Source of the DNA: Blasia pusilla
Taxonomy: Eukaryota
NCBI GenBank assembly: GCA_050084515.1
Contig: CM114271.1
Span: forward strand, 868,001 to 932,000
Direction: 5' to 3'
Length of the DNA stretch: 64,000 bases
Part shown: positions 1-35,622 of the stretch, piece after piece
Numbering within the stretch: position 1 is the stretch's first letter
How the letters are laid out: the number at the start of each line of letters is the position of its first letter
Translations under genes and position numbers: made by a program
The notes under the pieces: model-generated
Databases searched by the model: none
Told to the model about the DNA's origin: nothing
What the model saw: only the letters and a program-made list of their open reading frames with translations

Positions 1-498
1 CATGTTGGGTGAGCACGGCTCCAAACCCCAACATGCTCCAATCGGTATGCAACTAGAAAGGACGCCACTAGTACAAAAACTCCTTCCCGTGAGGATGAAT
101 GCCCCAAAATGTCATCTTCTGCCTGTCCTCCAATCTGATAGGCAGCTGATGGTATGCGGCTTGCCAATCCAACGAACTGAAGACCATTGCATACCCAATC
201 GCATCAAAGATCTCCTCAAGGGTGGGCATGGCATACCTATCGGACTTCATCTGCCAATTGATAGGTCGGTAATCTCCACACATCCGTCTATCCGTCTAGT
301 TGCCATGCACATCCTTCTTGGCGGGCATGGCAGTGGCAGATGCATACTCTCCATGCGACATCTCCACTAGTCTTGCTCCAACCAAGTCATGGCTCCTATT
401 GTGAATCAGAGCCCTCTCCATGTCACTATACCTGTAGGGTTGTCGGAAGATTGGCGTGTCACTCGATAACTCAATGCAGATCCCTACACCCTTCAGTG
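1..498 (-). mobile_element. Inverted, internally deleted Ty3/Gypsy pol fragment (RT N-terminus joined directly to RNase H start), second copy of the family at 500-6925
   Basis: ORF 68..283 (MCGDYRPIN..DRYAMPTLEEIFDAIG) is Gypsy RT and is the reverse complement of about 3660-4100. Bases 1-66 are the reverse complement of about 4615-4680 (RNase H start). The two parts are joined across a GGCG microhomology. Confidence 0.85.
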
Positions 499-790
499 GC
501 CATATTGAGGAACTTACTACTTTAGGTAAGTACCATTTTGAGTATATGATCGACTTACTATTTTTGGTAAGTGGCCCTTGACCTCCTACATCAGGTCAAG
601 AGCCAAGGAGGTGACGTGGGAGAATAGGTTACCATGGAGAGAGCTTGGGAGAGGGGAGGGGTATACCTCAAGGAGAGAGAGCTTGAGAGCTCATTCTCTC
701 TTTGTTGAACCTCTTGGCATGAGGCGGCGGAGTTATGGTCCCTTGCCTTGTGAGTGTAACCCGAGCCTCTCATTAGGAGAGTGGGTTCGG

Positions 791-1293
791 TGCGCGTCTC
801 ACTACGACATGTGGCGCAATTACGCCTATGTTTTCTTGACTTATTGCCTGTGTCCGCAGTACAGGGGTACCAAAGTTCCCTACCGAGGGATATTTTGTTG
901 TTGGGGGCGCTGGACTTAGAGCGGGTAGGGACCATTGATTTGGTCATTGTCGGTTGGCCATGTCAGGGCCAATCGAGTGTTGGACGAGGCAGCGGGTTGG
1001 CTGACACTCGGTCTTGGTTGTTTTGGGAGATGTTGAGGGTCTTACGGCAGTTGCAGGAGCACCAGTCTCGTTCTCCATCCTACATTCTGGAGAATGTGCC
1101 GATCTTAGGAGACTCCAGGTCACGGGTCGTGACGAGTGCTCATCAGGTGCTCGCATGGATCGGCCCAGCAGTGTTCTTGGATGCGGCGAGTGTAGGTTCT
1201 AGAGCCCATTGCCCGCGTCTATGATGGACCAACTTGGTGCCCCATGCGGTGTTATGGAGGGCGTATGCGAGAGTGGAACGCCCCTCCCCTTTG
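791..1293 (+). pseudogene. C5 cytosine DNA methyltransferase (DNMT3-like) domain, catalytic half (motifs IV, VI, VIII)
   Basis: DLVIVGWPCQG (motif IV, catalytic PC), RSWLFWEMLRVL, YILENV (motif VI), DAASVGSRAHCPRL*WTN (motif VIII; TGA at 1222-1224 where TGG is expected). Motif I (FxGxG) is not in the window. Confidence 0.85.
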
Positions 1294-1410
1294 TTGACAT
1301 GAGAGAGAGTGCACACCTTTGAGAGCTATGGTGTGAGATGGTGTAGAGAGAGATTGGATCTTACTTTACAAAGAGAGAATGAGCTCTCAAGCTCTCTCTC
1401 CCCATACCCC

Positions 1411-1437
1411 ATGCTGATGCTCTCGGGAGCACCATGT
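1411..1437 (-). promoter_or_regulatory. Putative primer-binding site of the Gypsy element, inverted
   Basis: Minus strand reads ACA|TGGTGCTCCCGAGAGC, i.e. the LTR terminal ACA followed by TGG, complementary to a tRNA CCA end. tRNA identity not verified. Confidence 0.55.
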
Positions 1438-2862
1438 AGCTTGCTGATTTGTATTTTTACAGATGTTACATTTTCGTTGGGAGAAATCAGCGCGGGAGCG
1501 CTGCCGAATTTTGTGTAGGAGAAAGAGACATTGGGCTTTACGACATTCCCTCTCAGTTTTTACTGAAATGTCTGATATTTTTTTGTGCTGGCGTAGATCG
1601 TGAAACTGTGCACGTTGTGCAACAAATAGTGCGCAATTTGGAGTTGCGAGCAAAAAGTTATGGTCAATCTTGTAAAGCTGCCATTGCTAGGTGATTTTTA
1701 GGGTTAAATTGTGCAAACCCTAAATCAGCCGCCACACCGGCGGCGGCCGTCGCCATCATAGTCACCGTCAACGGTCAACCGTCACCGTCGACGGTCAACT
1801 GTCACCGTCACCATCAGCGGTCAACCGTCACTGTCAACGGTCCACCGTCCATTGTCCACCCTTTGGGTGCCATTGCCGCCATTACGGAGTGGAGGGTCTT
1901 CCACGACGTTCGTTGATTCCTTGACTTGCGTCGCCACCACGTACTTTGTTTTGGCCGTCACTGTCATCGCAGTTTCTTCATCAACCAGTGATGGCAGATG
2001 ACCTCCGATTATGGTGTTTGAGTTTTGATTTCATGCTGTTATGTTGTGATTGGTAGCCGCTCGACGACGATCGAGTATCGTCTTTGTGGCGCTGTAAGCC
2101 GCGCGCCGCCGATTGTTGCCGCTTCGTGGCGGACCGCACCGTCTCGATCGCGGAGCCGCACCGTCATTGTGGAGCAGAGTGTGGGATTATTATTGATTGA
2201 GGATGGTATGCCGCCGAGTTCCGCATCCCACCATCGAGGGCCGTGCCGTTCGTAGCCGTTCCGTGCCGCCTGCAACGCCGCACCGTTCCCCTGGGACCGC
2301 ACTGTCTATCGAGGAGTTTTGAGCAGCATCAGTATGGGAGGAGTATGACTTGCTGATTGGAGGAGTTGTCTCCATGATCGAGTTGGGGTCGAGATTTGCA
2401 GTTGCTGAGGAGCGACATCGACATGTGTTCAAGTTACCCATTCTGGTCCTTTACCCTCCACGTGTGAGGGATTCTGGGATTTATTTGGGGATATTGGGTG
2501 TGTGGATGCTGAGAGCATCATTTATGTATGTGGTCTAGGGGACATAGACCTGTGTGGGATGTCCGGAGTTGAGGGTAGGTTGTTGATGAGATGAGCCTGG
2601 TCGATTTGCCTCACCACGCCGCGTGTTGCCGCACGTTACACGTCTCGGGGAGAGAGAGTGTGAGATCGAGGCGTGGAGGCTCTACTATGACCCACATTAT
2701 GTGTCATGGATGGAGCCGTTCCCAGATGAGGAGGAGGAGTTAGGAGACGCTACTGCCTCTTCCACTAGTGACGTTTTAGGAGGAGTCACTCACACGGGAG
2801 CAGTTGCACCGTCTAGTCGGGTTTGTCCCAGGTTCAACCCTGTGGTTGAGTTCTTTGCTGAG

Positions 2863-3200
2863 TAGTGGATTCCATTCTGGATCCAGGTCGTCAATCACAG
2901 GCAGTGAGGCACGATGATCGACCACCGCTGACTGTGGTCAACAGGGTAGGCAGGCCGCGGGCAGCCTTGCCCACGTTTGTGAGTTTTCCCGCTTCCTATG
3001 CATACAAGGAGGCCGAACCTGGCTTGGTTTGGGATGACCAGGTTCAGCGGTTGGTGGAGCCCAACGCCGACGAGAGAGAGCGAGCGATGGGATTTCCCAC
3101 AGGAGTGACGACAGTACCATCAGTGTCAGAGGCATCACGACGCCATGTCTTGGGTCAGGCAATGGACCTAAACTGCTTGACATGGATCCTCAGCTTGGGA
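2863..3200 (+). pseudogene. C5 cytosine DNA methyltransferase domain, C-terminal half (motifs IX-X), upstream of RT
   Basis: EPNADERERAMGFPTGVT (motif IX, resembles DNMT3 ExERxxGFPxxYT) and SRRHVLGQAMD (motif X). Joining 1293 to 2863 gives a continuous frame ..ERPSPLLVDSILDPGR.. Confidence 0.82.
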
Positions 3201-5303
3201 GTGGCTGAGCAGCGTCGTATGAGATCGCGACAGATCACAGCGGTTGCGTTGGTGAGCCCCATGCCTACCGAGACGATGGAGGCAGTGGCTGGGGGCGAGA
3301 CCCGAGGAGATCTACGCACCAGGGGAGATTGGGAGAGACACCCTTGGACTTCTTCGGATGTTTTGAAGGTACGCAAGGAGATGATAGCCACAACATCGAG
3401 CGTGGTTTCGGGCACTGCACGTGGAGGAGATCAGAGTTTGCAGTTGGCTGCAGGAGAGTGGCAGAGTGTTGTTGTTCGAGACGGGGTTGCACTATAGCAA
3501 CCACCGATACCCGCGCCGGAGAGTCCTACCGTAGTCACGATGGAGACTTGGGAGCCAGATATGGGCCCTAAGTTGACAGGAGGAGAGCGGCGCCGAATAC
3601 ATCAATTCCTCAAGAGCTATAGGAGCTGCTTTGCGGTTACCATGGAGGATTTGGGTACGTTGAAGGGACCGGGGATCCGCATTGAGTTGTCGAGTGATAT
3701 GTCGATCTTCCGACGACCCTACAGGTACAGTGAATCCTACTCTGAATCAGAGAGGGCTTTGATTCAGAGTAGGAGCCAGGACTTGGTCGGAGCAGGACTA
3801 GTGGAGATGTCGCATGGGGAGTATGCATCTGCCACTGTCATGCCCGCCAAGAAGGATGTGCATGGCAACTGGACGGATAGACGGATGTGTGGGGATTACC
3901 GACCTATCAATCGCGATTTAAGTCCGATAGGTATGCCATGCCCACCCTCGAGGAGATCTTTGATGCGATTGGTCATGCAAAGGTCTTGATTCATTGATTT
4001 ATGAGCCGAATACCATCACCGCCTATCAGATTGGAGGACAAAGCGTAAGACGGCATTTTGGGGCATCGATCCTCACGGGAAGGATTGTTTGTACCGGTGG
4101 CGGTTCTTACCATCAGGTTAAAGAACGCCTCGGATGAGTTTTAGAGGGTCATGGATAGGATCTTGGCTGATGTCCGGATTACGCTAGGTGTTATATTGAT
4201 GACATCGTAGTCTTTAGCGCCACGATTGAGGAGCATGAGCAACATCTAGAGGAGGTGTTTCAACGATTGCAATTACATGGGTGAAGCTACATCGAGGCAA
4301 GTGCAAGTTCTTCTACGACCAGATTGAGTACTTGGGTCATACGATATACCGGGGCCTTGGTGTTCAGCAAACGAAGGTAGAGGCTATCTCACGCATTCCA
4401 CGCCCTCTGAGATGTGAGCCGTGTTCGGCGCATTCATGGGATTGGCAAACTTCTATCGGCGATCACGTCAAAGGGATTGGTGATTATGAAGCCGCTCACC
4501 TTGCTGACCAAGGTGGATCACGAGTGGCACTTTGGGGGATAAGCGAGGAGCGAGCATTTGAGTTGCTCAGGGACAAAGTTGACATCCGCACCCATCTTGA
4601 GGAGACCGATCGGGGGCGTCCTTTCGATTGCACCTGATTGGAGCATGTTGGGGCTTGGAGCGGTGCTCACCCAAAGATGATGATGAGGGTAGAGAGTTCG
4701 TGGTGGCTTACGCTAGCCGCTCGAACAACGTTGCAGAGGCGAAGTAACAGCTCATATGAGGGTGAGTGCTTGGTCGGTGTGGGTGTCGCGCATTTCAGGT
4801 GTTACTTATTCGGCAACCCTTTACCATCATCATCGATCATCAACCCATGAAGTGGTTGATCGAGTCCGACAAGCTTACAGGGAAGCTTGCGAGATGGGCT
4901 CTGTTGTTGAAGGAGTATGATTTTCAAGTGGTACATAGACCTCGGACGCTCAACCAGGATGCAGATGGGTTGAGTCGTAACCCATGCGCAAGTCGGCCGA
5001 GATGCGATCGACCAGCTCGATGGCATGGAGAGTGATGAGGAGTTGGTGCCAGGATGGCACGCGTCCACCTATTTAGGCATGTTGGCTATGGAGAGCCGAG
5101 TGTGGAGACCGATGGCGAGGTCTAGTGGAGAGTCCTTGGATCCCGAGGCCAGTGAGGACACGACAAGTGGCCGAGATATTCATGATGATGGAGTAGTCTT
5201 GGAGTACCTTCGTACTGGCAGCGTTGAGAACATCGTGGATGCTAGAGAGCGGGATCGGATCCTATAGCGGGCCAGACGGTTCCGTTGGGAGGGGACACAT
5301 GTT

Positions 5304-6617
5304 TTGAGTGTTTGGGAGGATGGCAGAGTACGCGTAGTGCCACATCTTTCGCAGAGAGCACGACTAGTGCAGCATGCCCATGAGGAGTTGGGTCACTTTG
5401 GGGTGAAGCGGACGTACAGCTTGCTCCAGATTCAGTATTGGTGGCGAGGCATGCAGACTGACGTTCAGCAGTTTGTTGCCAGGTGCATGGTGTGTGATCG
5501 GGTCCGAGCATCGTTCAATGCTCCGACTCCACAGTTGCATCCATTACCGATCATGGGCTTAGGGTATAGATGGAGTTTGGATTTTGCAGGACCTTTGCCC
5601 TTGACGGGCGTCCGCGATCGTTATGTGTTGGTGATGGTCGAGCACTTCTCGGAGTGGATCGAGTTGGTTGCATTGCCTGAAAAAGCGAGTGAGGGAGTAG
5701 CTTATGCCTTCCTTGACAGAGTGTTGAGTCATTATGGCGCACCGGCTGAGGTGTTGACAGACCAGGGTACCGAGTTTCGCGGTGAATTCCAGGCCTTGTG
5801 TGATCAGGCGCTGATCAACCACCACCGACGGTCGCGAGATCATCCTGAGGCGGATGGATTAGCGGAGAGAGTTGTGCAGACGGTGAAGAGGGGTTTACGC
5901 AAGTTTGGCTTGCAGAGAAGTCACCTAGGAGATTGGGACCTCCAGTTGCCATGGTTGGCGATGGGATACAGATTCAACAGGCAGGCATCCTTAGCGTCTT
6001 TTTCACCGTACTTGCTACTTTATGGCCGAGAGCCAGATTTACCTGCGGCCATTCGTCGAGATGCTGGTGAGGTGCTTGACCTTGATGACCCAGATGTATG
6101 GGTGCGAGCATGTTCTCAGAGGGCTGAGTTATTTTGGAGAGTGATGCCCATGGCGTTCGAGAACTTGGCGATTGCACAACATCGGGATACGTTGAGGTAT
6201 GCGACTATTCGGGGTGGTGGTTATCGACCAACTATCCGGAGGTTTCATCAGGGAGATTATGTCTACTTGCAGCAGATGGCACCGACGACATTGGATGTGA
6301 CTGTAGGGCGCACTATCCTGAGAGTGCGTGACATTTTGCCATCAGGTGTTCTCTTGCCGGAGGGACGCGATGGTATGGTATGGAAGGACCATGTGCGTAA
6401 TTGTGCACCATGTCACCTTCCTAACATTGATGGTACAGTAGATCCGAGCTTAGCAGTAGTTCCTGCAGGCTTGCGTTGTATGTTGTGTGGTTCTGCCCGT
6501 GGTGCGACCACAATGCTAGTCTGTGATGGGTGTTTGAGAGGATGGCATATGGCATGTTTGACGCCACCTCTCACTAGGGTTCCTCAGGGACGATGGATGT
6601 GTCCCAGATGTATATAG
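5304..6617 (+). CDS. Gypsy integrase (HHCC + DDE) with C-terminal PHD finger; open remnant of pol
   Basis: HAHEELGHFG..CMVC; DFAGP..DQGTEF..GLAER; terminal CMLC..VCDGC..WHMAC..WMCPRC is a C4HC3 PHD finger (about 6477-6611). Confidence 0.9.
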   Translation: MSVWEDGRVRVVPHLSQRARLVQHAHEELGHFGVKRTYSLLQIQYWWRGMQTDVQQFVARCMVCDRVRASFNAPTPQLHPLPIMGLGYRWSLDFAGPLPLTGVRDRYVLVMVEHFSEWIELVALPEKASEGVAYAFLDRVLSHYGAPAEVLTDQGTEFRGEFQALCDQALINHHRRSRDHPEADGLAERVVQTVKRGLRKFGLQRSHLGDWDLQLPWLAMGYRFNRQASLASFSPYLLLYGREPDLPAAIRRDAGEVLDLDDPDVWVRACSQRAELFWRVMPMAFENLAIAQHRDTLRYATIRGGGYRPTIRRFHQGDYVYLQQMAPTTLDVTVGRTILRVRDILPSGVLLPEGRDGMVWKDHVRNCAPCHLPNIDGTVDPSLAVVPAGLRCMLCGSARGATTMLVCDGCLRGWHMACLTPPLTRVPQGRWMCPRCI

Positions 6618-9600
6618 AGTAGGTAGTTCTACATTCCGACTTGTGTCTGTGACATGGATGACAAGGAGGCGACTAACGATGGGGCCACATGAGCATCCGG
6701 CCTTCTTGCTCTTAGCGTCCGAGAGATGTATGTCATGGTAGGTAGGGATAGATGGCTATCTGGAGTTAGAGGGACCTAACCACCAGCTAGGGGGGCGATT
6801 GGAGATATTTTGGTACTTCTTGTCTCGTTGTTTGGATGCCATGAGTTAGCATGGGATCATGCGTGTTTGTGTGTGTGTTTGGTGACAGCGATGTATGTTG
6901 TGTAGCGATGTGTATGCGCACGATACCACTAAGGAGATCTTTTCTTTGGTTTCTTATGAGATTCATATAACTCACTAATAATATGATAGCAATATGTGTT
7001 TATCATATACAAATATTTTTTATCATATTATTAGAAAGTTATATGAAATCATTATATTATTTCTATATTACTTCTTCTTTTGTCATATCATATGCCTTTC
7101 TAATCCTTTACAAATTTACTCTTGAATTTATCATATTAAAATTTCTAAGACATGTAGGGCTAGATCAAGAATCATTCGCAAATTTGTATTCAGAGGTTGG
7201 GAAGGATTATGTCCTTTTACATTTGGATCTAGGTGATGATTTTATACAAGTTCCATATGTGATGATTATCAAGACCATAACACTTTATAATCTCATTAAT
7301 ACATTTCAAGGAGATAATGATGATAAATGAAGTGATTTGGACTTCTTGATTGGTACAACCATTCCTTTGACAAATAATAATACAATGGATGTTATTATTG
7401 TGTATGTCTTTTTTTGTTTTATATATATATCCTTGATGTACAATTATGGTTGAAGCCTATCTTTTGATTGTCTAAATGGGGGACCAAAGGGTAAGACAAC
7501 ATGAGGATGACATCTCCATGACTCGGTGTAGCTTTGAGTTTATTTTAGGTTTGTTGATGTTATGTACAACAACTCTTGTGTCCGGTATATTATCCACAAA
7601 ACTCTTAAATACATCCTTGTTGTGGTATGCTAAAAGGGTTGCCATGACAAATGCTAAGAAACAAGTATATTCTTGTCTCAAACTGCACTTTAGATCACTT
7701 ATTCTTTCAATGTACGTGTTGTTGTCATTGTTGACAAAATCGAGAAGATTCCAAGTGTATTGAGCTACTCATGCGATTCTCCGTTTTGTAGTCAAGGGCT
7801 TCTATATATGTTGATGAGTGTAGCTTCATCTACATTCCCAATGATACTTTCTCATCTTAAGATTGGACTAGTGGTCAATGGTAAGGGAATATCTTATTAC
7901 GTATCGATTATTGAGCGAGGTTGACTCTTACCCTTACGCATGGGTGCAAAATTTTCAAAGTCTCATTATCTCAACTCCTATTGTAGAGACCAAATAACAT
8001 TGCATACAACGTTAACTAATATCCATGGGATAAAAAACTCAAGACTAAAGATGGAAAATTTTACACGCATTGGGAAGTTAACCTTTTGTATACGTGTGTG
8101 CCTGAACTTATTATGGAATATAATAGCCAATGAAAGGAAAAGTAGCAAAGTGCGAGCATCATTTTATGAATATTTAAGCAAATCGTGTCAAATTTTCCAA
8201 ATTACAATTTTCATAGTTGAAAACTAGTAAGAATTGACAAACCCAATTTGAAAGAACATGGTTAAAATATCATTCAAAAGACATAATGACATGACAAAGT
8301 AAAAATCATGCAAAGAGATACAAAACATGTTATGAATTTTTCGTGTAATAATTTCGCAATGCTAATATAAGTTGTCATATCATGATTGTCGAAATGTGAA
8401 TGTGATCTTGATTAAAACTAGGTATAAGCTAAGATATTTAGACTATCTTTCGAAATGTAGTCCAAATTAGTGTTTTGTGCAAACATAACATGGAGTAGTG
8501 TGAACACATGCAATGTTCAAAAGTGGCTCTAAAAATTTGCAAAAATCATAAAAGATAGTACGCACATGGTGCAAAATGAGGACACATTTGCATTGATATG
8601 CACAAAAAATTAACATTGATCAAGTAGAAACATTATGTGGAGGTGTCTAGATTGAAATGCAGAAAAGAGACATATTTAGTTCAATGGGCCTTAATGGAGT
8701 AACACATTTTCTCATTTTCTTTCCTCCTACAAAAACAAAGATCCACAATTTCCTCATACTTGATCAACACTGTTCATGCACAAGACCACCACCAATGAGA
8801 CATAAAATTAGGGCATGAGTATACGATAATAGGAGTATGCATGATGACACTTGCAAGACTACTCGGAGAAGTAAAGATTATGAATGCAAAACTAGACGAA
8901 AATGATAGCGAGCATGCAAAAGATTATGAGGGATGAATATGATTGCAAACCCAATGAGAATTGCAATGTTATCTCATGAGAGTAATGTGCAAATGCTATA
9001 GGAAAAGAGTGCAAACGCAAAAGTGGAGGGAAGGCAAACCATGTGTGCAATGAAAGATTTACCATGTGAATACGCAATGGGAGTACCACGAAAATAAAAC
9101 AAACCAATGATAATAGAGGAAATCATGATGTAAAAGCCCATTGCGCCGCCACTTAACTCCAATAGGGAAACAAATTTCCACTTAGTCTTGAGAGTTTAAG
9201 TTATGCATCAAATGATGAGACAAAAGACAACTTCCACGCCATTACTAGATTGAAGAGAAGGAAAATGTGTTTAAAGGTCGCTTCCTTAAACATTGTAGAT
9301 GGGCAATTAACTACAAACTACAAAATAAGGTTGTTCAATCTGTCTCCACTCCCTAACTAATTACTAATAGGAATGTCCGCTGTAACGTCACATGATCACT
9401 AATGCAATAGGACGTTTCATAAACATACCGTAGGGTCAGACATCTGAGTATGTAATTTTTTATATGGCCAAATGCGGTCCGGGGGTGTCATATGAGGTGG
9501 ACACTCATCTCTTTCAGATGGATGTCTAAGATCACTATGGGTGTATTTACCACATACGCCTTAGAGATCACGTAATCTATGAGGATTGAACTTCCTTCGA

Positions 9601-11028: not shown

Positions 11029-13225
11029 ATGATGAGCGAGTGGAAGAGTCTCACGGGATCGAAGAAGACTGTCAGCCCCAAGCCCGGACGCATTACAGGG
11101 CAATATTTTCTCGACCTAGGTCAATCGGACTTCTCTTACTCCACGTGTTCTGTTTGCGGATTGCTGTACGCCCGTGGTCACGAGAATGATGAAAAGGTTC
11201 ACAAAGTTTTCCACAGGAACCGCACTCGAGGCATTCAGTTCAAGGTACAAAGTCGCGGATACCGCATTGTTCCTATCAGTAGTCCTGGAATCCTTCACTT
11301 TTGCTCCGCTTGTTCTTAACTTGCCCATGTTATCTTCTTGGGAAGGTGAATGAGGCTACGTCGGAGATGCTATGTTTTCTCGCTCCTGACTTCTGCCTGC
11401 TATGGCGAGTCAAATTGCATTATGTGAAACTCGTGGAGCCTGCCAGTTGAACTCTGTAGAATATGTATAGAGTTCGGGGACGTTACTGAAGATTTCATAC
11501 TGAGTAGATGCAACTTCTCTGCTGTTGCCTTTCTGCACAAGAACTGTCAGTAAATTGACTGTGCTAGTATGCATCTAAGATATGCAGGGTTGGAAGAGTG
11601 AGCGGGTCATTAGCAGAGAAGAAGGCACAGAAACCCGGGTTGTACTCGTACTTCCGGAGGATGCACTCCATCAAGCGAAGGTTTGTGGTCTTGTGTCTTT
11701 TTGCACTCAAAAGTATTGTGACACCTGTCTTTGGTGCCACACTTGTTTGGTACCCTTGGTAGTCGGATTCCCTGATATGGTCTTAACTTCTTGGGGCAAT
11801 GTCTAACTGAATTCAGGATGATCTTGACATAGTTAGATTCAATTCCTTGCATTTGATTTGGTGTGTTGTCCTGTGGAGCGGATGGTATCCTGAGAATATA
11901 GGTTGAAGGCTGGGAAAAGTGAGTTCGTAAGTCATTACAAGTTTGGCTGCATGACCTTGATCGTACATAAATATCTGCTACCTTCTAGCCTAGGTGTATG
12001 CCTGAACTATGTTTATTCCATTCTTCTCTCGTGTCATTCAGGTGAAAGAAGTGGTTGACGTTATGGAAGTCGAGCTAGGGCTTAGTCCTGGCTGGCTGCT
12101 TCAGAGACCATGTAAGGTAAGTGGTCGGGTTTCTTGTCCAGCATATCTCCCGTGGAGAACATTGGACTGTCCGCATACTACAACCAGTGGAGAGTATATC
12201 AATTCTCTTCTCAGGGGAATTAGGATAACTTTGCTGATTATTTTATGTCATGAAGGGAGCTGATCTGTGTGCTCGTACACAGGTTTACCTCTTCATTTCT
12301 TCTTCAAAGAAGATTGTAGGTTGTGCAATGGCCGAGCCAATTAGACATGCCTTCCGAGTGATGCCTGTCAAACAGCAGAAACATAAGGAAGATCAATGTG
12401 ATGGAGAAGGGATCAGACTTTCAACAGCTTTCAGGGAATGTCCCCATGGTTCTGTGCAGGTTGATAAGAGAGTGTCAGGACCCCCGATTGCCGCAGAAAT
12501 TGCTATTGAACAGATAACAGGAGCAACAAGCTCTATAGATATTGTGGCGATGGGCATGAAAGGGGAGGATGATCGTCATCAATCAGCTACTATTAGATTA
12601 GCCAACACTGAAAGATTAGTTAATTGTGGTGATTCGCATGTAATTAGGCCAAATCATGTACAGATAAAAGAGGAAAATAGATCTATCCCCAGTTGTACTA
12701 GTAATACCGTGGTAAAAAACCAATCAAATGTGGGGGGAAAATGTGGACGTATGATTGTACAGCGGGAGGATTCTCCGGGGCTGGGAAGTCAAGCAGCCAA
12801 TGTCATGCTCTTCGGGAATGTAAAGTTTATTCGAGAAGTGGCACCTAGAAAGAAACTGCGGCAGGAACGAACACAGGAATTGGGGAGTGCAATTATGTGT
12901 AGTAAGACACCTGTGCCAGCCATTTGTGGTGTACGAGTCATTTGGGTCTCTCATTCTGAAAGGAGGAAGGGCATTGCCTCTCAACTTATAGATGCCATGA
13001 GGTACATCTCTCGGTCTTGACTAAATTTGCTGTCATGCTCATATCTATCTTGGAGCTATATTTCCAAAATTGTCTAACTTCAAGTGCTTTCCCTGCAGGA
13101 GAACTTTTTGTCTGGGAATTGTTTTGGAGCCTTCTCAAATTGCCTTTTCCCAACCAACACCGGATGGGAAAGGATTTGCGGCACAGTATTGTCAAACAGA
13201 TGAGTTTTTGATTTATACCAAGTAA
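11029..13225 (+). CDS. CTF7: Cohesin acetyltransferase CTF7/ECO1; exons 11029-11244, 11588-11680, 12042-12116, 12283-13001, 13099-13225
   Basis: QYFLDLGQ followed by C2H2 finger CSVCGLLY..DEKVHKVFH; GNAT motifs IVGCAMAEPI, CGVRVIWVSHSERRKGIASQLID and IAFSQPTPDGK. All four introns are GT-AG and keep frame to TAA 13223-13225. The start ATG is the first in-frame one; an upstream exon cannot be excluded. Confidence 0.92.
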
Positions 13226-17585: not shown

Positions 17586-18271
17586 TGAGAAAATGATTGA
17601 CCAGCAGAAGTATCTCCTTGTACAAAGTCAGAGCTAGCATCACCTAGACCATCCATGATTTCAGCTTGTACACAAACAACAAGTCAATTCCTATCTCTAT
17701 TGCCAAATCAGAGCCCTACCATGATGTGACTCTTCTTACTATCTAAGAGATACTAAGAAGGATTTTACACAACCACACCTTGCACTCACACTACAGGTCC
17801 TCACATGTCACCATCTCAGAGATCAGACATGGCTCACCATTGAGCACAAACAATCTCCATCAGCATACTAGACAAAACAACCTGCCTTCCAGTGAGGCTC
17901 TAGCAAGCACAGCAATTAGTCTCAATCTCCTCTTCTTACTCTCTGATCACTCTGCAGCAGGACCAAGAGCCTCAGGAGTCCTCACCAAAATTGTGCATCT
18001 TTGTAGAGAATTGGCTTCTGCTCTCTAAAGAGAGACATTATATACATGAGGGTGAGCACTTCTGGTCCTTGGATCTTCTTGAACAGATCCATACCCTAAA
18101 TAACAGATGGTGGCTAACCCTAACTCGAGAATTGCCCTAATTCAAGGTTACCCTAAAAAGATAGAGGAACACTAAGTTATCTCTAGCTAACTAAATTAGT
18201 ATCCAACTAAGTTAGTATCTGACTAACTACTTTTAGAGCATGACTAAACTAGATATTAACAAATTTCAACA
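17586..18271 (-). repeat. Copia 3' LTR (about 686 bp)
   Basis: Near-identical to 22356-23039; preceded on the minus strand by the PPT. Confidence 0.93.
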
Positions 18272-21200
18272 CTCCCTCTTAATGAGAGTTTAGAGTAATG
18301 CCCCTCATAGATATACACTTTCTATGTTTGTCCTGTGATAGAGGTTTGGTCAGGACATCAGCTGCCATATTCTCTGTTGGACAGTAAACCAAGGAGATTT
18401 CTCTTCCTATCATTTCTCTTACAAAGTGATGTTTGATGTCAATGTGTTTTGTTCTAGGATGATGAACAGGATTTTTGCTTAATGCAATACTTCCTTTGTT
18501 GTCAACCTGTAGGGATGTAGGAGTCATCTGTTCATATCCAAGATCATTCAATAAGCTCCTTAACCAGATCACCTCCTGAGCAGCAAGAGAAAGCGCCATT
18601 ACTCTGCCTCAGTTGTAGAGAGTGCAACCGTTCTTTGTTTCTTCTGCAGCTGATCACCCCTCCACTTAACAAGAAGACATATCCACTTGTTGATCTTCTT
18701 TCATCGGTATCATCTCCCCAACTTGCATCTGAAAACCCTTCCAAGATTGGTCCATTTTCTTGATGCCTGTATTCCAAGTATGTTCTTGTTGTGCCACGCA
18801 AATATCTGAGTACTCTCTTCAGACATTTCCAATGTTCTATTGTAGGTTTGCTGGTGTACTGGCTAAGACACCAACTGGGTATGCTAAGTCTGCTCTGGTA
18901 CAGACCATAGCAAACATCAATGACCCTACAACACTTTGATATAGTGCTTGCAAATTGTCAACCTTTTCAGTTGAAATTCCCATATCTTTGCTGAGTTTGC
19001 AGCCAGGATCTAGGGGTGTTGATACAGGCTTACAATCTTGCATGTTGTACCTGATCAAGATACTCTCTATATACTTTTCTTGACTCAATCGAATCCAGCT
19101 CTCTTCCCGATTTCTCTCAATCTGAATCCCCAATAGCCACTTTGCTGGACCCAGATCAACCATCTCAAAGTTGCAACAGAGGTCTTTCTTCACTCTCTTT
19201 ACAGTGTCTAAGCTCCCTCCTAGCATCAGAGGATCATCAACATACAATGCTATGTACATAGTGGAGTCTAAGGAGTACACTCCTTGATCTGCATTGCTAC
19301 GTTGGAATCCTTTCCTGATCAGGTAAGCATCCATCTTCTCATACCAGCATCTAGGTGCTTGCTTTAGGCCATAAAGGGCTTTCTTCAAGAGACACACCTT
19401 GCCTGGATGAGTATATCCATCTGGTACCTCCATGTAGATCTCCTCTTTGAGTTCTCCATTTAAGAATGCAGTCTTCACATCCATCTGTTCCACCTCCCAA
19501 TTTTGTTGAGCTGCTAATGCCAAGAGAACTCTAATGGATCCATACCTTGCAACAGGAGCAAAGGTCTCCTGATAGTCTAAACCAGCCTCCTGATTGAAGC
19601 CTTTTGCAACCAGACGTGCCTTGTACTTCAAGATCTCATTCTTTGGTCCCCTTTTTATTCTGAAGACCCATTTGCAACCAATGGTCTTTCTACCAGGTGG
19701 CAAATCTACAAACTCCCATGTCTCATTTTTCTCTAATGAGACCTTTTCTTCTGCCACAGCCTGCTCCCCACTGTTTCAATCATTCCTGCTCATAGCCTCA
19801 CTCAAAGAGTTGGGCTCTACAACTCCTTCTTCAATAGAATGAGCTTCGTTTATCCCCAACCTTTCTACAGGTTTGGAAATTCTTCCAGATCTCCTTTGCT
19901 CTGAGATCTCCTTGATCACTCCCTCTGTGGACTCATGTGCCTCTAGAACTTGCTTGGCTGCACTTCTCCTTTGGTACACCTTCATAGGCTGATCATTTTC
20001 AACATGATCTTCCTCTCTTACACCTTGGGTGCAAGTATCTAATCCTCCACTACATTCTGCAAGTGTATCCTTTGATACTTCCTCCTTATCAGCATCTTGA
20101 TGTGAGTTCGACACTACAGGGATGTTTACAGGAGTGACAACAGAAGTGATTACTGGCATCACTCTGGTGACCATTGACTCTTTGTGCTCAGAGTCTTTCC
20201 AAAAACTCTTCTCATCAAAAGTCACATCATTGCTTGAATTGCCTTGCAGGTTCTAGGATTATACAACATGTATCCTTTCAGCCCTTCTTCATACCCAACA
20301 AATATGTACTTGTCAGCCTTTGCATCTAGTTTCCTCCTTTGTGTATCAGGGGTGAGGGCATAGCCAACACAACCAAACACTTTCAATCTAGAAATGTCAG
20401 GTTTCTTACAGACCAACACTCTTCTGGAGTTACATTCTTCAAGGCCGCTGTGGGACTGATGTTCCTCAGATAATTCGCTGTCATGATAGCTGCTCCCAGA
20501 ATTCTTGACCAAGCTTGGCATGTTGCAACATGCTCAAGGCTTTCTCATGCAAGGTTCTATTCAGCCTTTCAGCTACTCCATTTTGGTGGGGGCTGTCACG
20601 TGCCGTAACATCTTTTAATATCCCCTTGGCTGAGAGATATGCTTGAAAGTCTTTACTTGCATATTCTCCTCCTCCATCAGACCTAAGTCTCTTCACTCTT
20701 CGTTCAACTTGCCTCTCTGTCATGTTGACAAAGATAACAAATTTCTCTAGAACTTGAGCCTTGCTGCTTATCAGGTACACAAAGCTCTTTCTACTCTTGT
20801 CGTCCACAAATGACACAAAATAGCGTGCTCCTCCTAGTGACTTTACAGGCATTGGTCCACACACATCAGAGTGAATCAGGTCCAATAATCTTTCAGACCT
20901 GTTAAGTGACCTTCTGGGAGCGGGTGACTTGTGAGCTTTCCCTTGCACACAAGCCTCACAGAACTCAAGCTTCTGTGACTTCTCAATCTCCACACCACAT
21001 GACATTCCTTGCAGAGCTCGAATCTGTGTCCGATAGGTGCCCCAATCTGCAATGCCACAGATTCAGCAAGCTCCTATTCTCAGTGAGATTTACCTGCTCC
21101 TCTGGATCACATTCCAGCAGTTTGAACAAATTTCCTTGTACCACTCCTCGGCACAAGACTTTCCCGTTTCTCTCAAGTGTGCAAGTCTGGTTTGAGTTCC

Positions 21201-22355
21201 AGAAGTGCACATCAATTCCTGCCTCCAATAATTTCTTAACTGACAACAGATTTTTTATGTAATCTGCAACATATAACACTCCACGCAACTGCCATTTCAT
21301 CAATTTGCTTTCATCAGCACTGAAGAAAATAGAAACTGAGCCAACCCCTCCCACAGGACTTAACAATCCAGAAGCACTTCTCACGTGATGATTACTTGCT
21401 GGTTTTAGGTCTGAGAACAACTCCTCTTGATAACAGACATGTGATGTTGCACCGGAGTCCACCCACCATCCACTGCTCCTCTTAAGATCTTTCTCACACG
21501 AGGCCATCATGAAAGAACAACAACTTTCATCAGATGTGTATTCAGTAGTCATCACTCCAGCAACCTTTGCCTTATCCTTCTCCCTGTAGGAGGTACTTTG
21601 CTTCTCCATCAACTTCTCTTGATTCTTGACTGCAGATCCACTCCTTTTAACTTTCTCTCCCCTTTTCAACTTCTTTGACAATTCGAGCAAGATGTCCCTT
21701 CTCTGCCACAAATGTAACAAGTTCTGGTCTCTTTCCACTTCCTATCCCTGTTGAGCATGACTGTTTTTCCACAATCACCTCGCTTCTGGTCATATCTCAG
21801 GAGCTTGTTGGTCCTGATTCCCATGTAAGCAAATCTGCCTCCCAGGTTTCAAAGATTGTAACCATTGTATCAAATCGAGGAGGTAAGGAGGATAGCAACA
21901 TGGTTACCTTCCATATAGGAATCAGTTCTGTCCAACTGCTTTCACTTGTGCAAAAGTTGACTCCATTTTGGCAATGTGAGCGCAACTCTTTCTGTGTCAG
22001 CCATCCTTGTCGAGCTCAATGTCTTCCACCTTTGCATAGCTAGAGTCAAAGCTGACTCCTTGTTCAAACTCTTCAGCTTGGACCAGATCTCCCAAGCATT
22101 GCTTATACCATCCAACTCCTCATAGAGGAGTTAGGTCTGACTTTGAGTAAGATAGCTGCCAATTGATTTTCTTGTCTCCAAGCGAAGTTTACCACAAGCT
22201 CTTCTAGATTGTGAGGTTTCATCTCAACATACACCCACAACCCTTTCAGCATTAGAATGTCCATCATGGTTCTGGACCATTCTCTATAGTTCCCACCATC
22301 TAACTTCTCTCACTGCTGAAATCACTAAGGAGAAAGGTTTGGGTGGGCCCATAAC

Positions 22356-23039
22356 TGAGAATATGATTGACCAGCGAAGTATCTCCTTGTACAAAGTCAG
22401 AGCTAGCATCAGCTAGACCATCCATGATTTCAGCTTGTACACAATCAACAAATCAATTCCTATCTCTATTGCCAAATCAGAGCCCTACCATGATGTGACT
22501 CTTCTTACTATCTAAGAGATACTAAGAAGGATTTACACCAACCACACCTTGCACTCACACTACAGGTCCTCACATGTCACCATCTCGAGATCGACATGGC
22601 TCACCATTGAGCACAAACAATCTCCATCAACATACTAGACAAAACAACCTGCCTTCCGGTGAGGCTCTAGCAAGCACAATTAGTCTAATCTCCTCTTCTA
22701 CTCTCTGCTCACTTTCACTTTGCGGGACCAAGAGCCTCAGGAGTCCTCACCAAAATTGTGCATCTTCAGAGAATTGGCTTCTGCTCTCTAAAACAGAGAC
22801 ATTATATACATGAGGGTGAGCACCGGCGGCCCTTAGATCTTCTTGAATGCAGATCCATACCCTAAATAAATGTGATGGTGGCTAACCCTAACTCGAGAAT
22901 TGCCCTAATTCAAGGTTACCCTAAAAAGATAGAGGAACACTAAGTTATCTCTAGCTAACTAAATTAGTATCCAACTAAGTTAGTATCCGACTAACTATTT
23001 TTAGAGCATGACTAAACTAGATATTAACAAATTTCAACA
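22356..23039 (-). repeat. Copia 5' LTR (about 684 bp)
   Basis: Near-identical to 17586-18271; followed on the minus strand by PBS and gag. Confidence 0.93.
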
Positions 23040-30309: not shown

Positions 30310-31450
30310 CATACTGCTCGAGAATGCAAAATCACGAAACCATCGTTGCGAGTATTCCTGTCACTGCCCGCACTGAAAGTTCAACCGAAGCACCTTGAAT
30401 GAGCTTACATGAACATCATAATTGTACCAGACTCGCTTTGCAAGACCAACAGTCATCGCGATACGCGCATTCCTTCAAACATAGAATTACTGTCACAGTT
30501 CTCACTACCTGTCACTGATCGCGGAAACTTCAACCGATGGTAAGCGATCAACTACCACACCTGTAATAAGCCTCAATGAGTGTAACTATTATGGTAGACT
30601 CACTTCGCCTGACCACTCTCTTCGCAATTAGGCATTCATTCAATCACAGAAGCATAAAATTACTCTCACGACGATCACTATCTATCACTAACCGCGGGAA
30701 CTTCGACCAACAGAAAACCATCAGCCAAGGCACCTGTCATGAGCTTACATGAACATTCTTGCTGTGGCAGACTCACTTCGTTCGACAACTGTCAACGCGA
30801 TTTGGCTATCATTCAAAAACGGGAGCATAGAATTACAGTCACAACTCTCAGTACTTTTCACTAACCGCAGAATTTTCAAACGATCAGCCAAAGCATCTTG
30901 AGTGAGCTCACATATGCATGGGCATTCTTACTGTGGCAGTGGCAGACTCACTTCGCTCGAACACAGATTTCGCGATTTGGCTTTTATTCAAACATAGGGA
31001 CATGGAAGTACAGTCACAACTCTCACTGCCCTTCACGAACCGCGGAAACTTCAAGCGATCAGCCAAAGCACCTTAAATGAGCTTAAATGAACATTCTCAC
31101 TGTGACAGACTCACTTCGCTAAACCATCGTCATCGCTATTTGGAATTCCTTCAGACTTACAAACGTAGAATTGCTGCACACCTTTCACTAACCGCGGAAA
31201 CTTCAAACGATCACCCACGGCACCTCGAGTGAGCTTACATATACAATAGCATTCTCACTGAGACGGACTCAACTCCGCTCGATCACAGTCATCGCGATTT
31301 GGCATTCATTCAAACATTGAAAAATAGAATTGCAACCACACCTCTCACTGACCTCAGAAACTGCGAACGAAGAACAACGTTCAGCCCTTCAATGCACTTG
31401 AATGAAGAACAGTTTTGTTGCTGCAGACTCGCTTCGCTGGGGCACACAGT
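30310..31450. repeat. Diverged tandem repeat, about 160-175 bp unit, about 7 copies
   Basis: Anchor AGACTC(A/G)CTT(C)G recurs near 30430, 30596, 30769, 30944, 31106, 31266 and 31425, with CATAGAATTAC, AACCGCGGAAACTTCAA and GAGCTTACATGAACATT in each unit. Confidence 0.85.
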
Positions 31451-34980: not shown

Positions 34981-35622
34981 TGTCACGTCTTTTAGGATAG
35001 ATCGATGAGATCTAGTAGAGCGCCTTCGTGAGTAGTGGACAACAGATCAGTAGGTTGAGGATGACCTACTCAGGCCCCGGGAAACCTGAGAGAGCAAGTT
35101 TCCCCTTCGTTTCGGCTCATTTTGAGCCATATTGAGGAACTTACTATTTTAGGTAATTACCATTTTGAGTATATGATCAACTTTGTATTTTTGGTAAGTG
35201 GCCCTTGATCTCCTACATCAGGTCAAGAGCCAAGGAGGTGACTTGGGAGAATAGGTTACCATGGAGAGAGCTTGGGAGAGGGGAGGGGTATACCTCGTGG
35301 AGAGAGAGCTTGAGAGTTCATTCTCTCTTTGTTGAACCTCTTGGCATGAGGCGGCGGAGCTATGGTCCTTCGCCTTGTGAGTGTAACCCAAGCCTCTCAT
35401 TAGTAGAGTGGGTTTGGTTTGACATGAGGGAGAGTGCACACCTTTGAGATCTATGGTGTAAGATGGTGTAGAGAGAGATTGGATCTTACTTTATTGGAGA
35501 TATTTTGGTACTTCTCACCTCTGTGTTTGGATGTCATGAGTTAGAATGGGATCGTGCGTGTTTGTGTGTGTGTGTTCGGTGACAGAGATGTATGTTGTGT
35601 AGCGATGTGTATGCGCACAACA
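34981..35622 (+). mobile_element. Solo LTR (about 640 bp) of the DNMT-Gypsy family
   Basis: TGTCACG...GCGCACAACA (TG..CA). Contains contiguously the pieces found at 500-790, 1294-1368 and 6798-6925. Confidence 0.88.

What the first reader, a model, noticed from the sequence alone, without database searches (positions are those of the whole stretch)
791..6617. Gypsy retrotransposon carrying its own DNMT3-like cytosine methyltransferase and a PHD histone-reader finger
Seen in sequence: C5-MTase motifs IV (GWPCQ), VI (ENV), VIII, IX (ERERAMGFP) and X (RRHVLGQA) in linear DNMT3-like order, directly upstream of RT. The C-terminal half (2865 frame) is in the same frame as the RT start (3540), separated by one TAG. 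Established: DNMT-carrying retrotransposons are known from dinoflagellates and the charophyte alga Klebsormidium, but are not a standard part of land-plant Gypsy lineages. Inference: this family may methylate its own cDNA or insertion site (self-silencing or camouflage) and target chromatin through the PHD. This would be a mobile epigenetic writer plus reader, here in a genome whose host genes look like land-plant genes.
Basis: partly seen in the sequence, partly recalled or inferred. Interest (0 to 1): 0.92.

Follow-up and report, generated by a model that had tools for sequence, protein, structure and literature searches.

The report
Dead liverwort retrotransposon carrying DNMT3 methyltransferase
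This is a broken, rearranged copy of a family of Gypsy-type jumping genes that carry their own DNMT3-like DNA methyltransferase and a PHD histone-reading finger; the kind was described from one green alga, and here it turns up in liverworts and mosses.

Summary
The window has C5-methyltransferase motifs IV, VI and VIII (792-1294; PF00145 E=1.9e-10) and IX and X (2863-3200). These are followed in frame by RT, RNase H, and an integrase ending in a PHD finger.

It is not a one-off capture:
- Other genomic and transcribed copies in the same species join 1294 directly to 2863.
- All 80 metagenome loci fetched have a contiguous DNMT.
- Fragments are annotated in Marchantia, Calypogeia, Riccia and Sphagnum. 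Intact polyproteins occur in Closterium, Monoraphidium and metagenomes.

The domain is DNMT3-like by profile (DNMT3A E=1.4e-19) and by fold (TM about 0.8). Among copies its dN/dS is 0.2-0.5, like RT and integrase.

The family has DIRS-like split direct repeats, as reported for KnitGypsy-Dnmt3 of Klebsormidium.

The TAG before RT is a conserved feature, present in 53 of 58 loci. In the window it reads TAG-CAA-CCA, a leaky-stop context. This points to two ORFs: gag-PR-DNMT, then RT-RH-INT-PHD by readthrough.

This copy is dead. Motifs I-III are lost, the N-half is displaced into a repeat, there is a private TGA, and RT-RH changes frame at least 8 times.

Methylation activity and PHD targeting remain inferred. 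A host gene places the window in a liverwort. My paper searches found no land-plant report.

The parts
1..495 (-). Inverted, 5'-truncated RT fragment of a second copy of the same family
   Evidence: 63-495 is 84.5% identical to 4102-3661 and 5-66 is 88.7% identical to 4674-4615. tblastn of the RT ORF hits 520-257 on the minus strand at 74%.
499..791 (+). Repeat A1, part a (positions 146-438 of the 640-bp A-B unit); its 5' end is cut off
   Evidence: 94.5% identical to 35126-35418. Alignment of the repeat copies. Reads continue upstream of 499 with repeat sequence (loose ends).
792..1294 (+). DNMT N-half (motifs IV, VI, VIII), displaced into repeat A1; private TGA at 1222-1224
   Evidence: PF00145 E=1.9e-10. 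Motif places. At 1224, A>G in depth 50981 of 52012 (X1) and in 51/51 and 37/37 first-mate-minus RNA reads. Aligns to relatives up to the residue where the C-half begins.
1295..1368 (+). Repeat A1, part b (positions 439-513 of the A-B unit)
   Evidence: 96% identical to 35419-35493. The joint 791->1294 in other copies shows that a and b are normally contiguous.
1369..2862 (+). Internal leader region F: 20/46-bp tandem repeat (1761-1849), trace of protease (2338-2370), stretch upstream of the DNMT ending in the start of motif I (2704-2862)
   Evidence: Weak peptide matches to ORFs of L063 and L001 (E 2.0-9.6), read by eye against the L001 ORF. Tandem repeat. No gag or PR hit at E<=1e-3.
2863..3494 (+). 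DNMT C-half (target-recognition region, motifs IX and X) plus linker; end of ORF1
   Evidence: 60% identical to Calypogeia P0002 residues 90-258.
3495..3503 (+). Conserved in-frame stop with leaky-stop context, TAG-CAA-CCA
   Evidence: A stop at this place in 53 of 58 loci. CAA follows in 52 of 54. 9 of 11 database proteins that reach this region end here, Calypogeia and Sphagnum ones included. The UAG-CAR-YYA motif is from PMC3159437.
3498..5035 (+). Reverse transcriptase and RNase H, degraded: at least 8 frame changes between 3900 and 4800
   Evidence: Ungapped tblastn of an intact RT ORF (L014) switches frame repeatedly. Private indels at 4112, 4170, 4427, 4611, 4816 and 5027 against other copies (table 4). 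RT_RNaseH hit.
5268..6617 (+). Integrase ORF, open for 449 aa: H2C2 zinc finger (5349-5510), DDE core (5565-5828), C-terminal PHD finger (6477-6611)
   Evidence: Pfam hits. 54% identical to P0169 and sister to it in the tree. PHD nearest to CHD4, PHF12, KDM5A/B, DPF, BHC80 and AIRE fingers.
6785..6797 (+). Polypurine-tract-like run just before repeat B
   Evidence: AGCTAGGGGGGCGA read directly. The same run stands before repeat B in L055 and L056.
6798..6921 (+). Repeat B1 (positions 513-640 of the A-B unit); no A2-B2 follows
   Evidence: 90% identical to 35493-35618. Aligns to repeat B of loci. Loci with A..B only also exist.
34981..35622 (+).
   Evidence: Depth of the a, b and c parts is 10-30 times that of the internal parts.

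Best explanation
The stretch 499-6921 is a dead, rearranged copy of a family of Ty3/Gypsy-type retroelements of bryophytes in which a DNMT3-like C5 cytosine methyltransferase is a built-in part. The intact plan is: repeat A, leader, gag (CCHC), protease, DNMT, conserved TAG, RT, RNase H, integrase with a C-terminal PHD finger, purine tract, then repeats B-A-B. Shown here: the domain content; that the DNMT is contiguous in other copies; that it was kept by selection about as strongly as RT and integrase; that the family is transcribed in this species; that it occurs in liverworts, mosses and green algae. Inferred mechanism: ORF1 (gag-PR-DNMT) is made in bulk. ORF2 (RT-RH-INT-PHD) is made by occasional readthrough of the TAG. 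The methyltransferase acts on the element's own new DNA or its landing site. The PHD finger tethers the integrase to nucleosomes whose H3 tail is unmethylated at K4, steering insertion away from active promoters, much as chromodomains do in chromoviruses. This particular copy does none of this. It lacks gag, most of the protease and DNMT motifs I-III. Its DNMT N-half has been moved about 2 kb upstream into repeat A. Its RT-RH is frameshifted.
For: Domains.

Contiguous DNMT elsewhere: the joint 1294->2863 is seen in 2 DNA contigs of X3 (depth 180) and in 28 and 22 RNA reads of X22 and X23. All 80 fetched loci match the N/C-spanning query P0002 in one piece. The halves abut at one residue in 6 of 18 relatives.

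DNMT3 type: a profile of 4 intact domains hits DNMT3A at 1.4e-19, DRM at 5e-12 and M.HhaI at 6e-9. The model of the L002 ORF (pLDDT 74.8) has only DNMT3A/B/C chains among the rows listed up to rank 50, with target TM up to 0.80.

Selection: median dN/dS is 0.515 for DNMT (454 pairs), 0.415 for RT and 0.456 for INT. DNMT pairs with dS>1 give 0.20.

Plan: zf-CCHC, Asp_protease, DNMT, RVT, RNase H and integrase stand in that order in P0024. P0169 has the same order plus PHD and is sister to the window's integrase.

Repeats: A1..B1-A2-B2 with all four parts in L051, L055, L056 and L063. A read consensus after 6923 runs from the end of B into the start of A.

Stop.

Expression: 6263 and 6960 RNA reads laid, strongly one-stranded (for example 197 against 18 in 5704-5924). 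Only 17 and 34 reads are 99% or more alike.

Hosts.

Liverwort host gene.
Against: - No intact copy was seen in any land plant. None of the 80 loci has an ORF of 600 aa or more (longest 545), and the DNMT carries 0-11 stops per copy. The named bryophyte proteins are fragments of 250-780 aa.
- Close pairs (dS<0.1) have dN/dS 0.82, so recent history is near neutral.
- The loci used for selection, repeats and the stop come from another host than the window. Their closest named proteins are from Sphagnum.
- Enzyme activity is unproven. The Klebsormidium Gypsy DNMT gave no methylation in yeast; the authors call this inconclusive.
- The loci have CAA-CCC, not the full CAR-YYA.
- The PHD reading preference rests on my recall of what its nearest solved relatives bind.
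- Pfam finds no RVT_1 in the window's RT ORFs and no gag or PR in the L078 and L063 ORFs.
Confidence: 0.85

Rival explanations
1. Fossil passenger: the DNMT module was useful in algal ancestors, but in land plants the family is extinct and the domain has no present role. The RNA comes from read-through or from silenced relics.
For: There is no ORF of 600 aa or more in the 80 loci. Stops are frequent in every domain. dN/dS is 0.82 for close pairs. Repeats within one element are only 86-95% identical. The window copy is dead. Only fragments are annotated in bryophytes.
Against: Transcripts are strongly one-stranded over the whole element in two RNA runs. The catalytic motifs and the stop context are kept across liverwort and moss copies. 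Only 80 loci of one metagenome set and one 64-kb window were examined, and no whole genome.
Confidence: 0.4
2. Pseudo-enzyme: the domain is kept, but not as a DNA methyltransferase. It could be a DNMT3L-like partner that recruits or blocks host DNMT3, or it could act on RNA.
For: The Klebsormidium domain did not methylate DNA in yeast. The algal type-B relatives have ECQ instead of PCQ in motif IV, and P0012 has SCE.
Against: The bryophyte copies and the window keep PCQ, ENV, the motif VIII arginines and motifs IX and X. The L001 and L002 ORFs keep a DNMT3-style motif I. The model fits the DNMT3A catalytic domain at target TM about 0.8.
Confidence: 0.2
3. The odd order at this locus (repeat a, DNMT N-half, repeat b, leader, DNMT C-half) is an assembly error, not a real rearrangement.
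For: The region is made of high-copy repeats, with a, b and c at 10-30 times the depth of the internal parts. No listed contig spans the whole stretch. Both break points fall exactly at places that are contiguous in other copies.
Against: The neighbourhood shows other real damage of the kind seen in old repeat nests: an inverted truncated RT at 1-495, a cut repeat A and private indels. There is a 4-base TTTG overlap at the N/b junction, as in repair or template-switch joints. No tool result shows a misjoin.
Confidence: 0.15
4. One-off capture, or chance neighbourhood of a host DNMT3 pseudogene and a Gypsy element; or the 1568-nt gap is an intron of a host gene.
For: In this window the two DNMT pieces are apart and the gene is incomplete. 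RNA reads skip 1295-2862.
Against: The same fusion occurs in 162 metagenome stretches, of which 80 were kept. It also occurs in 99 polyproteins of 900 aa or more and in six named bryophyte species. The joined form also stands in DNA contigs, and the skipped piece ends TG..AG, not GT..AG.
Confidence: 0.02

Closest known systems
KnitGypsy-Dnmt3 of Klebsormidium nitens (de Mendoza et al. 2018, PMC5890265; sections 9-11 read)
   Same: A DNMT3-type, non-rearranged methyltransferase sits inside the polyprotein of a Gypsy-type element. The repeat structure is like a DIRS element while the domains are Gypsy. The DNMT is under purifying selection. The copies are methylated or silenced.
   Different: The host is a land plant (liverwort; relatives in mosses), not a charophyte alga. 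The paper's main text mentions no PHD finger (0 occurrences) and no stop between DNMT and RT. Direct sequence comparison was not possible: no Klebsormidium protein appeared, the figures are not held, and the supplements, which may show the domain map, are closed.
SymbioDIRS-Dnmt3 and SymbioLINE-Dnmt of Symbiodinium (same paper)
   Same: They are retroelements with their own DNMT. SymbioDIRS-Dnmt3 domains methylate CG de novo in yeast.
   Different: They belong to other element classes (tyrosine-recombinase DIRS, LINE), live in another host kingdom and were acquired independently.
Chromoviruses (Gypsy elements with a chromodomain on the integrase; cited in PMC6673714 and in preprint 10.64898/2026.05.21.726589, passages read)
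   Same: A histone-reader module sits at the C-terminus of the integrase and is thought to steer integration.
   Different: Chromoviruses carry no DNMT.
[quoted passage not shown]
   Same: A PHD finger is encoded by a retrotransposon.
   Different: Those papers were not read, and whether any of those elements also carries a DNMT is unknown to me.
EpiLTRs of Cymbomonas and Euglena (preprint 10.64898/2026.05.21.726589, passages read)
   Same: They are LTR elements carrying DNA methyltransferase and chromatin-reader modules.
   Different: Those combine an adenine methylase with a DNMT4-like cytosine methylase and a chromodomain. The preprint lists streptophyte Gypsy-DNMT3 as a separate acquisition.
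Tobamovirus-type leaky UAG (UAG-CAR-YYA; PMC3159437, passage read)
   Same: The window has TAG-CAA-CCA between an upstream ORF and the polymerase ORF, in the same frame.
   Different: Readthrough is not shown here. The moss-like loci have CAA-CCC.

Membership tests
C5 cytosine DNA methyltransferase (PF00145) | Profile hit above the curated cut-off | tested here: met
   The ORF 760-1224 scores E=1.9e-10, 41.1 bits against a cut-off of 22.
C5 cytosine DNA methyltransferase (PF00145) | Complete catalytic domain, motifs I to X, in this copy | tested here: not met
   Only motifs IV, VI, VIII, IX and X are present. The Pfam match starts at profile position 59 of 324. A trace of the start of motif I sits at 2842-2862, and about 26 codons after it are gone. 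There is a TGA at 1222-1224.
DNMT3 type | Motifs in linear order, not permuted as in DRM | tested here: met
   The order is IV-VI-VIII-IX-X in the window, and I-X in the L001 and L002 ORFs and in P0024, P0165 and P0169.
DNMT3 type | Closer to DNMT3 than to other solved C5 methyltransferases, by sequence profile and by fold | tested here: met
   Profile: DNMT3A 1.4e-19, DNMT3C 3.4e-18, DNMT3B 2.1e-17, DRM 5.4e-12, M.HhaI 6.4e-9, and no DNMT1 among 57 hits. Foldseek: every listed row up to rank 50 is DNMT3A, 3B or 3C. The window's N-half alone is not decisive (HhaI 0.0032, DNMT3A 0.0058).
DNMT3 type | Placement inside the DNMT3 clade in a tree with DNMT1, CMT, DRM, DNMT4/5/6 and host bryophyte DNMT3 | not tested
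   No reference sequences of those families could be obtained.
DNMT3 type | Methylates DNA | not testable with these tools
   This needs an enzyme assay. The algal counterpart was inconclusive in yeast.
Ty3/Gypsy LTR retrotransposon | Polyprotein order PR-RT-RNase H-integrase, with H2C2 and DDE integrase | tested here: met
   RT, RNase H and INT stand in order in the window. PR is only a trace here, but it stands upstream of the DNMT in P0024.
Ty3/Gypsy LTR retrotransposon | Two identical long terminal repeats flanking the element | tested here: not met
   The family has split direct repeats, A1-internal-B1-A2-B2, complete in L051, L055, L056 and L063. Some copies have A..B only. The window copy has a cut A1 and a B1 only.
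KnitGypsy-Dnmt3 lineage | DIRS-like repeat structure combined with Gypsy domains and a DNMT3 module | tested here: met
   against the description in PMC5890265, section 9.
KnitGypsy-Dnmt3 lineage | Sequence and tree affinity to the Klebsormidium copies | not testable with these tools
   No Klebsormidium sequence was returned. The supplements are closed.
Chromovirus | Chromodomain at the integrase C-terminus | tested here: not met
   The C-terminus is a PHD finger (PF00628, 1.5e-10), and there is no chromodomain hit.

The most novel reading that the evidence does not exclude
A lineage of Gypsy-type elements has carried its own DNMT3-type 'writer' and a PHD 'reader' from streptophyte algae into land plants, and is still transcribed in liverworts. 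The writer sits in the abundant gag-protease ORF, upstream of a conserved leaky UAG. It would therefore be made in structural amounts and could methylate the new DNA copy or its landing site, while the PHD-tagged integrase picks chromatin with unmethylated H3K4. If some copies are still active, bryophytes would hold a mobile epigenetic writer-reader system, and part of what is catalogued as bryophyte 'DNMT' genes would be element-borne.
Probability: 0.3. Interest if true: 0.8.

Novelty: new member of a known kind. Interest (0 to 1): 0.6.

Why it matters
DNMT-bearing retrotransposons have been described from dinoflagellates and one charophyte alga (PMC5890265). My searches found no report from land plants.

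Here the family shows up in three liverwort genera, in Sphagnum, in Closterium and Monoraphidium, and widely in metagenomes. That changes the picture from a curiosity of one alga to an old, widespread green-lineage element.

Practical consequences:
- UniRef already names some Sphagnum and Marchantia fragments 'DNA (cytosine-5-)-methyltransferase'. Counts of host DNMT genes in bryophytes can therefore be inflated by element relics.
- The conserved TAG gives a testable case of readthrough control in a plant retroelement.
- Marchantia is a tractable model in which one could ask what an element-borne DNMT3 does.

Tried and rejected
- No whole genome is held for the window, so copy census and insertion ages in this species could not be done.
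- The run index listed no RNA holder. The RNA evidence comes only from the two raw-read runs laid.
- The alignment A2 was too loose for the locus search, so the single protein P0002 was used instead.
- phmmer of the C-half against solved structures found nothing at E<=1.
- phmmer of the N-half was too weak to tell DNMT3 from bacterial enzymes.
- Pfam saw no RVT_1 in the window's RT ORFs. It saw no gag or PR in the L078 and L063 ORFs. There the CCHC and DSG motifs are read by eye only.
- blastn across the TAG gave no alignments. The site was then mapped through protein P0003.
- The ESM Atlas added nothing beyond 'DNA methylase, Streptophyta'.
- The intron reading of the 1568-nt gap was rejected.
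- I considered a template-switch origin for the a-N-b order, because of the TTTG overlap and because both breaks lie at points contiguous elsewhere. I could not test it.
- The integrase tree holds only 3 type-B rows, so it says little on how often the DNMT changed place.
- Figures and supplements of PMC5890265 (domain map, Ka/Ks, alignments) were not available and may bear on the PHD and the stop codon.

Full report
**What is in the window.**
Region 1-7000 is GC-richer (51-55%) than most of the window. Reading stop to stop gives a string of ORFs on the plus strand.
- ORF 760-1224 hits the C5 methylase family PF00145 (E=1.9e-10). ORF 4766-5035 hits RT_RNaseH. ORF 5268-6617 hits Integrase_H2C2, rve and, at its very end, PHD.
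- ORF 2862-3497 and the RT start share a frame, with one TAG between them.

**The DNMT is a built-in part of a family, not a local accident.**
- A HMMER scan of 1.84 billion representative proteins, queried with 2862-3989 (the stop read as X), found 1270 proteins at E<=1e-3, many of them 1000-3400 aa long.
- Local blastp showed that in these proteins the window's N-half and C-half lie side by side, about 28 residues apart. When 18 relatives were laid on the window, the two halves met at the same residue in 6 of them.
- Reads and contigs of the window's own species were laid on 400-7000. They show a joint 1294->2863 (skipping 1568 nt) in 2 DNA contigs of run X3, and in 28 and 22 RNA reads of runs X22 and X23. 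The skipped piece ends TG..AG and the joined form exists as DNA, so it is not an intron.
- A scan of metagenome contigs with a Calypogeia protein that spans the junction gave 162 relatives. All 80 loci kept match it in one piece.

**Type of methyltransferase.**
- The window's halves alone are too short to classify.
- A profile of four intact domains from relatives hits DNMT3A (1.4e-19), 3C and 3B, well ahead of DRM (5e-12) and M.HhaI (6e-9). No DNMT1 appears among the 57 hits.
- An AlphaFold model of the open L002 ORF (pLDDT 74.8; over 90 in most 10-residue blocks of the catalytic core) finds only DNMT3A/B/C chains in the rows listed up to rank 50. Target TM is about 0.78-0.80.
- The motif order is linear, unlike DRM.
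- A proper tree with host DNMT families could not be built, because no reference sequences were available.

**Architecture of the family.**
- P0024 carries zf-CCHC, aspartic protease, DNMT, RVT_1, RNase H and integrase, in that order.
- P0169 has the same order plus PHD. It is the window integrase's sister (54% identity, SH-aLRT 96).
- ORFs of L078 and L063 show CCHC-like and DSG motifs upstream of the DNMT, by eye. Pfam does not confirm them.

**Repeats.**
- The loci explain this. Complete elements are A1-internal-B1-A2-B2 (L051, L055, L056, L063). L005, L018 and L046 show B-A-B. Others carry A..B only.
- In the window, A is the first 513 bp of the unit and B is the last 128 bp. The 640-bp unit is a solo A-B.
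- Read consensus after 6923 runs from the end of B into the start of A. Read consensus after 6797 in other copies begins like repeat B of the loci.

**The TAG is a feature, not damage.**
- Mapped through protein P0003, 58 of the 80 loci cover the site. 53 have a stop there (TAG 39, TAA 14), one has GAG, and four distant copies (under 35% identity) have GTT. None has CAG.
- The next codons are CAA-CCC in 48 of 54 loci. The window has TAG-CAA-CCA.
- Of 11 database proteins that reach this region, 9 end within two residues of it. These include two from Calypogeia fissa and one from Sphagnum jensenii.
- UAG-CAR-YYA is the consensus for efficient readthrough in tobamoviruses and other plant viruses (PMC3159437, passage read).
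- I infer two in-frame ORFs, gag-PR-DNMT and RT-RH-INT-PHD, with the second made by readthrough. This is not shown. The algal relatives P0024, P0165 and P0169 are single ORFs.

**Selection.**
- I used 34 (DNMT), 24 (RT) and 11 (INT) of the 80 loci: those where one tblastn segment covered the region.
- Codons with stops or gaps were left out. Pairs with fewer than 100 shared codons, or saturated, were dropped. That left 454 of 561, 232 of 276 and 45 of 55 pairs.
- Median dN/dS is 0.515 for DNMT, 0.415 for RT and 0.456 for INT. DNMT gives 0.82 for pairs with dS<0.1 and 0.20 for pairs with dS>1.
- The DNMT was therefore conserved while the family diversified, about as much as RT and integrase, and it decays freely after insertion.
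- These loci are from another host than the window. Their closest named proteins are from Sphagnum, at up to 97% identity.

**State of copies.**
- No locus has an ORF of 600 aa or more. Copies carry many stops but few frameshifts.
- The window copy is worse. Repeat A is cut at its position 146 and abuts an inverted RT fragment of another copy (1-495).
- The DNMT N-half (792-1294) sits between parts a and b of repeat A.
- The leader region (1369-2862) ends in the stretch that normally leads into motif I. This rests on weak matches read by eye. It is then joined straight to the C-half. About 26 codons are lost and the N-half lies 2 kb out of place.
- TGA at 1222-1224 is private to this copy. Other copies read G at 1224, which gives Trp as in the relatives.
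- RT-RH changes frame at least 8 times, and private indels are seen against other copies.
- No A2-B2 follows B1. Whether the a-N-b order is real or an assembly error cannot be told here.

**Expression.**
Two RNA runs labelled with the same species gave 6263 and 6960 reads at 80% likeness or more. They are strongly one-stranded along the whole element, DNMT included. Only 17 and 34 reads are 99% or more alike. The family is transcribed, mostly from other copies. By the tool's note on stranded libraries, the RNA is most likely sense.

**Host and range.**
- An exon at 41349-41963 (minus strand) is an alpha-1,4-fucosyltransferase. It is 81% identical to Riccia fluitans, 82% to Marchantia polymorpha and 76% to Calypogeia, against about 70-74% to other land plants. 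The window is therefore from a liverwort.
- Named relatives of the element come from Marchantia polymorpha, Calypogeia fissa, Riccia sorocarpa, three Sphagnum species, Closterium and Monoraphidium.

**The PHD finger.**
- Its nearest solved relatives are the fingers of CHD4, PHF12, KDM5A/B, DPF2/3, KAT6A, BHC80, AIRE, ATXR5 and UHRF1.
- From memory, most of these bind the H3 tail with unmethylated K4. Hence the proposal that the finger steers integration away from active promoters. This is inference.
- PHD fingers in retrotransposons are known (PMC6673714, passage read).

**Literature.**
- Searches found Gypsy-DNMT3 only in PMC5890265, and as a citation in preprint 10.64898/2026.05.21.726589 ('streptophytes (Gypsy-DNMT3)'). 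None reports it from land plants.
- PMC12344493 mentions DNMT3 inside LTR and DIRS elements 'as previously reported'.
- PMC6453930 and PMC11982613 were checked by term search only and say nothing on this.

**Verdict.**
It is a new member, in land plants, of a kind known from one alga. The copy itself is a wreck. The functional claims stay hypotheses.

Noticed in passing
proteins P0012, P0018, P0025, P0029, P0193 and others: A second, commoner architecture exists: RT-RNase H-DNMT-integrase-PHD, with the DNMT between RNase H and integrase. It accounts for 83 of 100 polyproteins of 900 aa or more, against 16 with the window's order. One named example is Monoraphidium neglectum MNEG_11595; the rest are mostly metagenome proteins. 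I found no description of it in the papers searched.
   Followed up: partly
window 3495-3503; loci L001-L080: There is a conserved in-frame TAG/TAA between DNMT and RT, followed by CAA-CC(A/C). This suggests programmed readthrough. It places the DNMT in the gag-protease ORF rather than in pol.
   Followed up: yes
window 17607-23039 (-): A Ty1/Copia element with 97-99% identical LTRs (17607-18271 and 22376-23039). It has RVT_2, an rve integrase and a Pol beta-barrel domain on the minus strand. It looks much younger than the Gypsy-DNMT copy.
   Followed up: partly
window 60540-62725 (+): A long ORF with an RVT_1 hit (7.6e-12) and no LTR-type domains nearby. It is probably a LINE-like element.
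   Followed up: partly
window 41349-41963 (-) and 12238-13017 (+): Two host gene exons: an alpha-1,4-fucosyltransferase (GT10), closest to Riccia and Marchantia, and an ESCO1/2-type acetyltransferase domain.
   Followed up: partly
algal relatives P0024, P0165, P0169: Motif IV reads GWECQ, with Glu in place of the usual Pro before the catalytic Cys. The bryophyte copies and the window read GWPCQ. P0012 reads GWSCE.
   Followed up: no
window 30588-31088 and 46219-46574: Short tandem arrays with units of about 173 bp and 178 bp. Their nature is unknown.
   Followed up: no
one search hit list: UniRef names some Sphagnum and Marchantia fragments of this element 'DNA (cytosine-5-)-methyltransferase', and IMG names some 'site-specific DNA-cytosine methylase'. 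Element relics can be mistaken for host or bacterial methylase genes.
   Followed up: no
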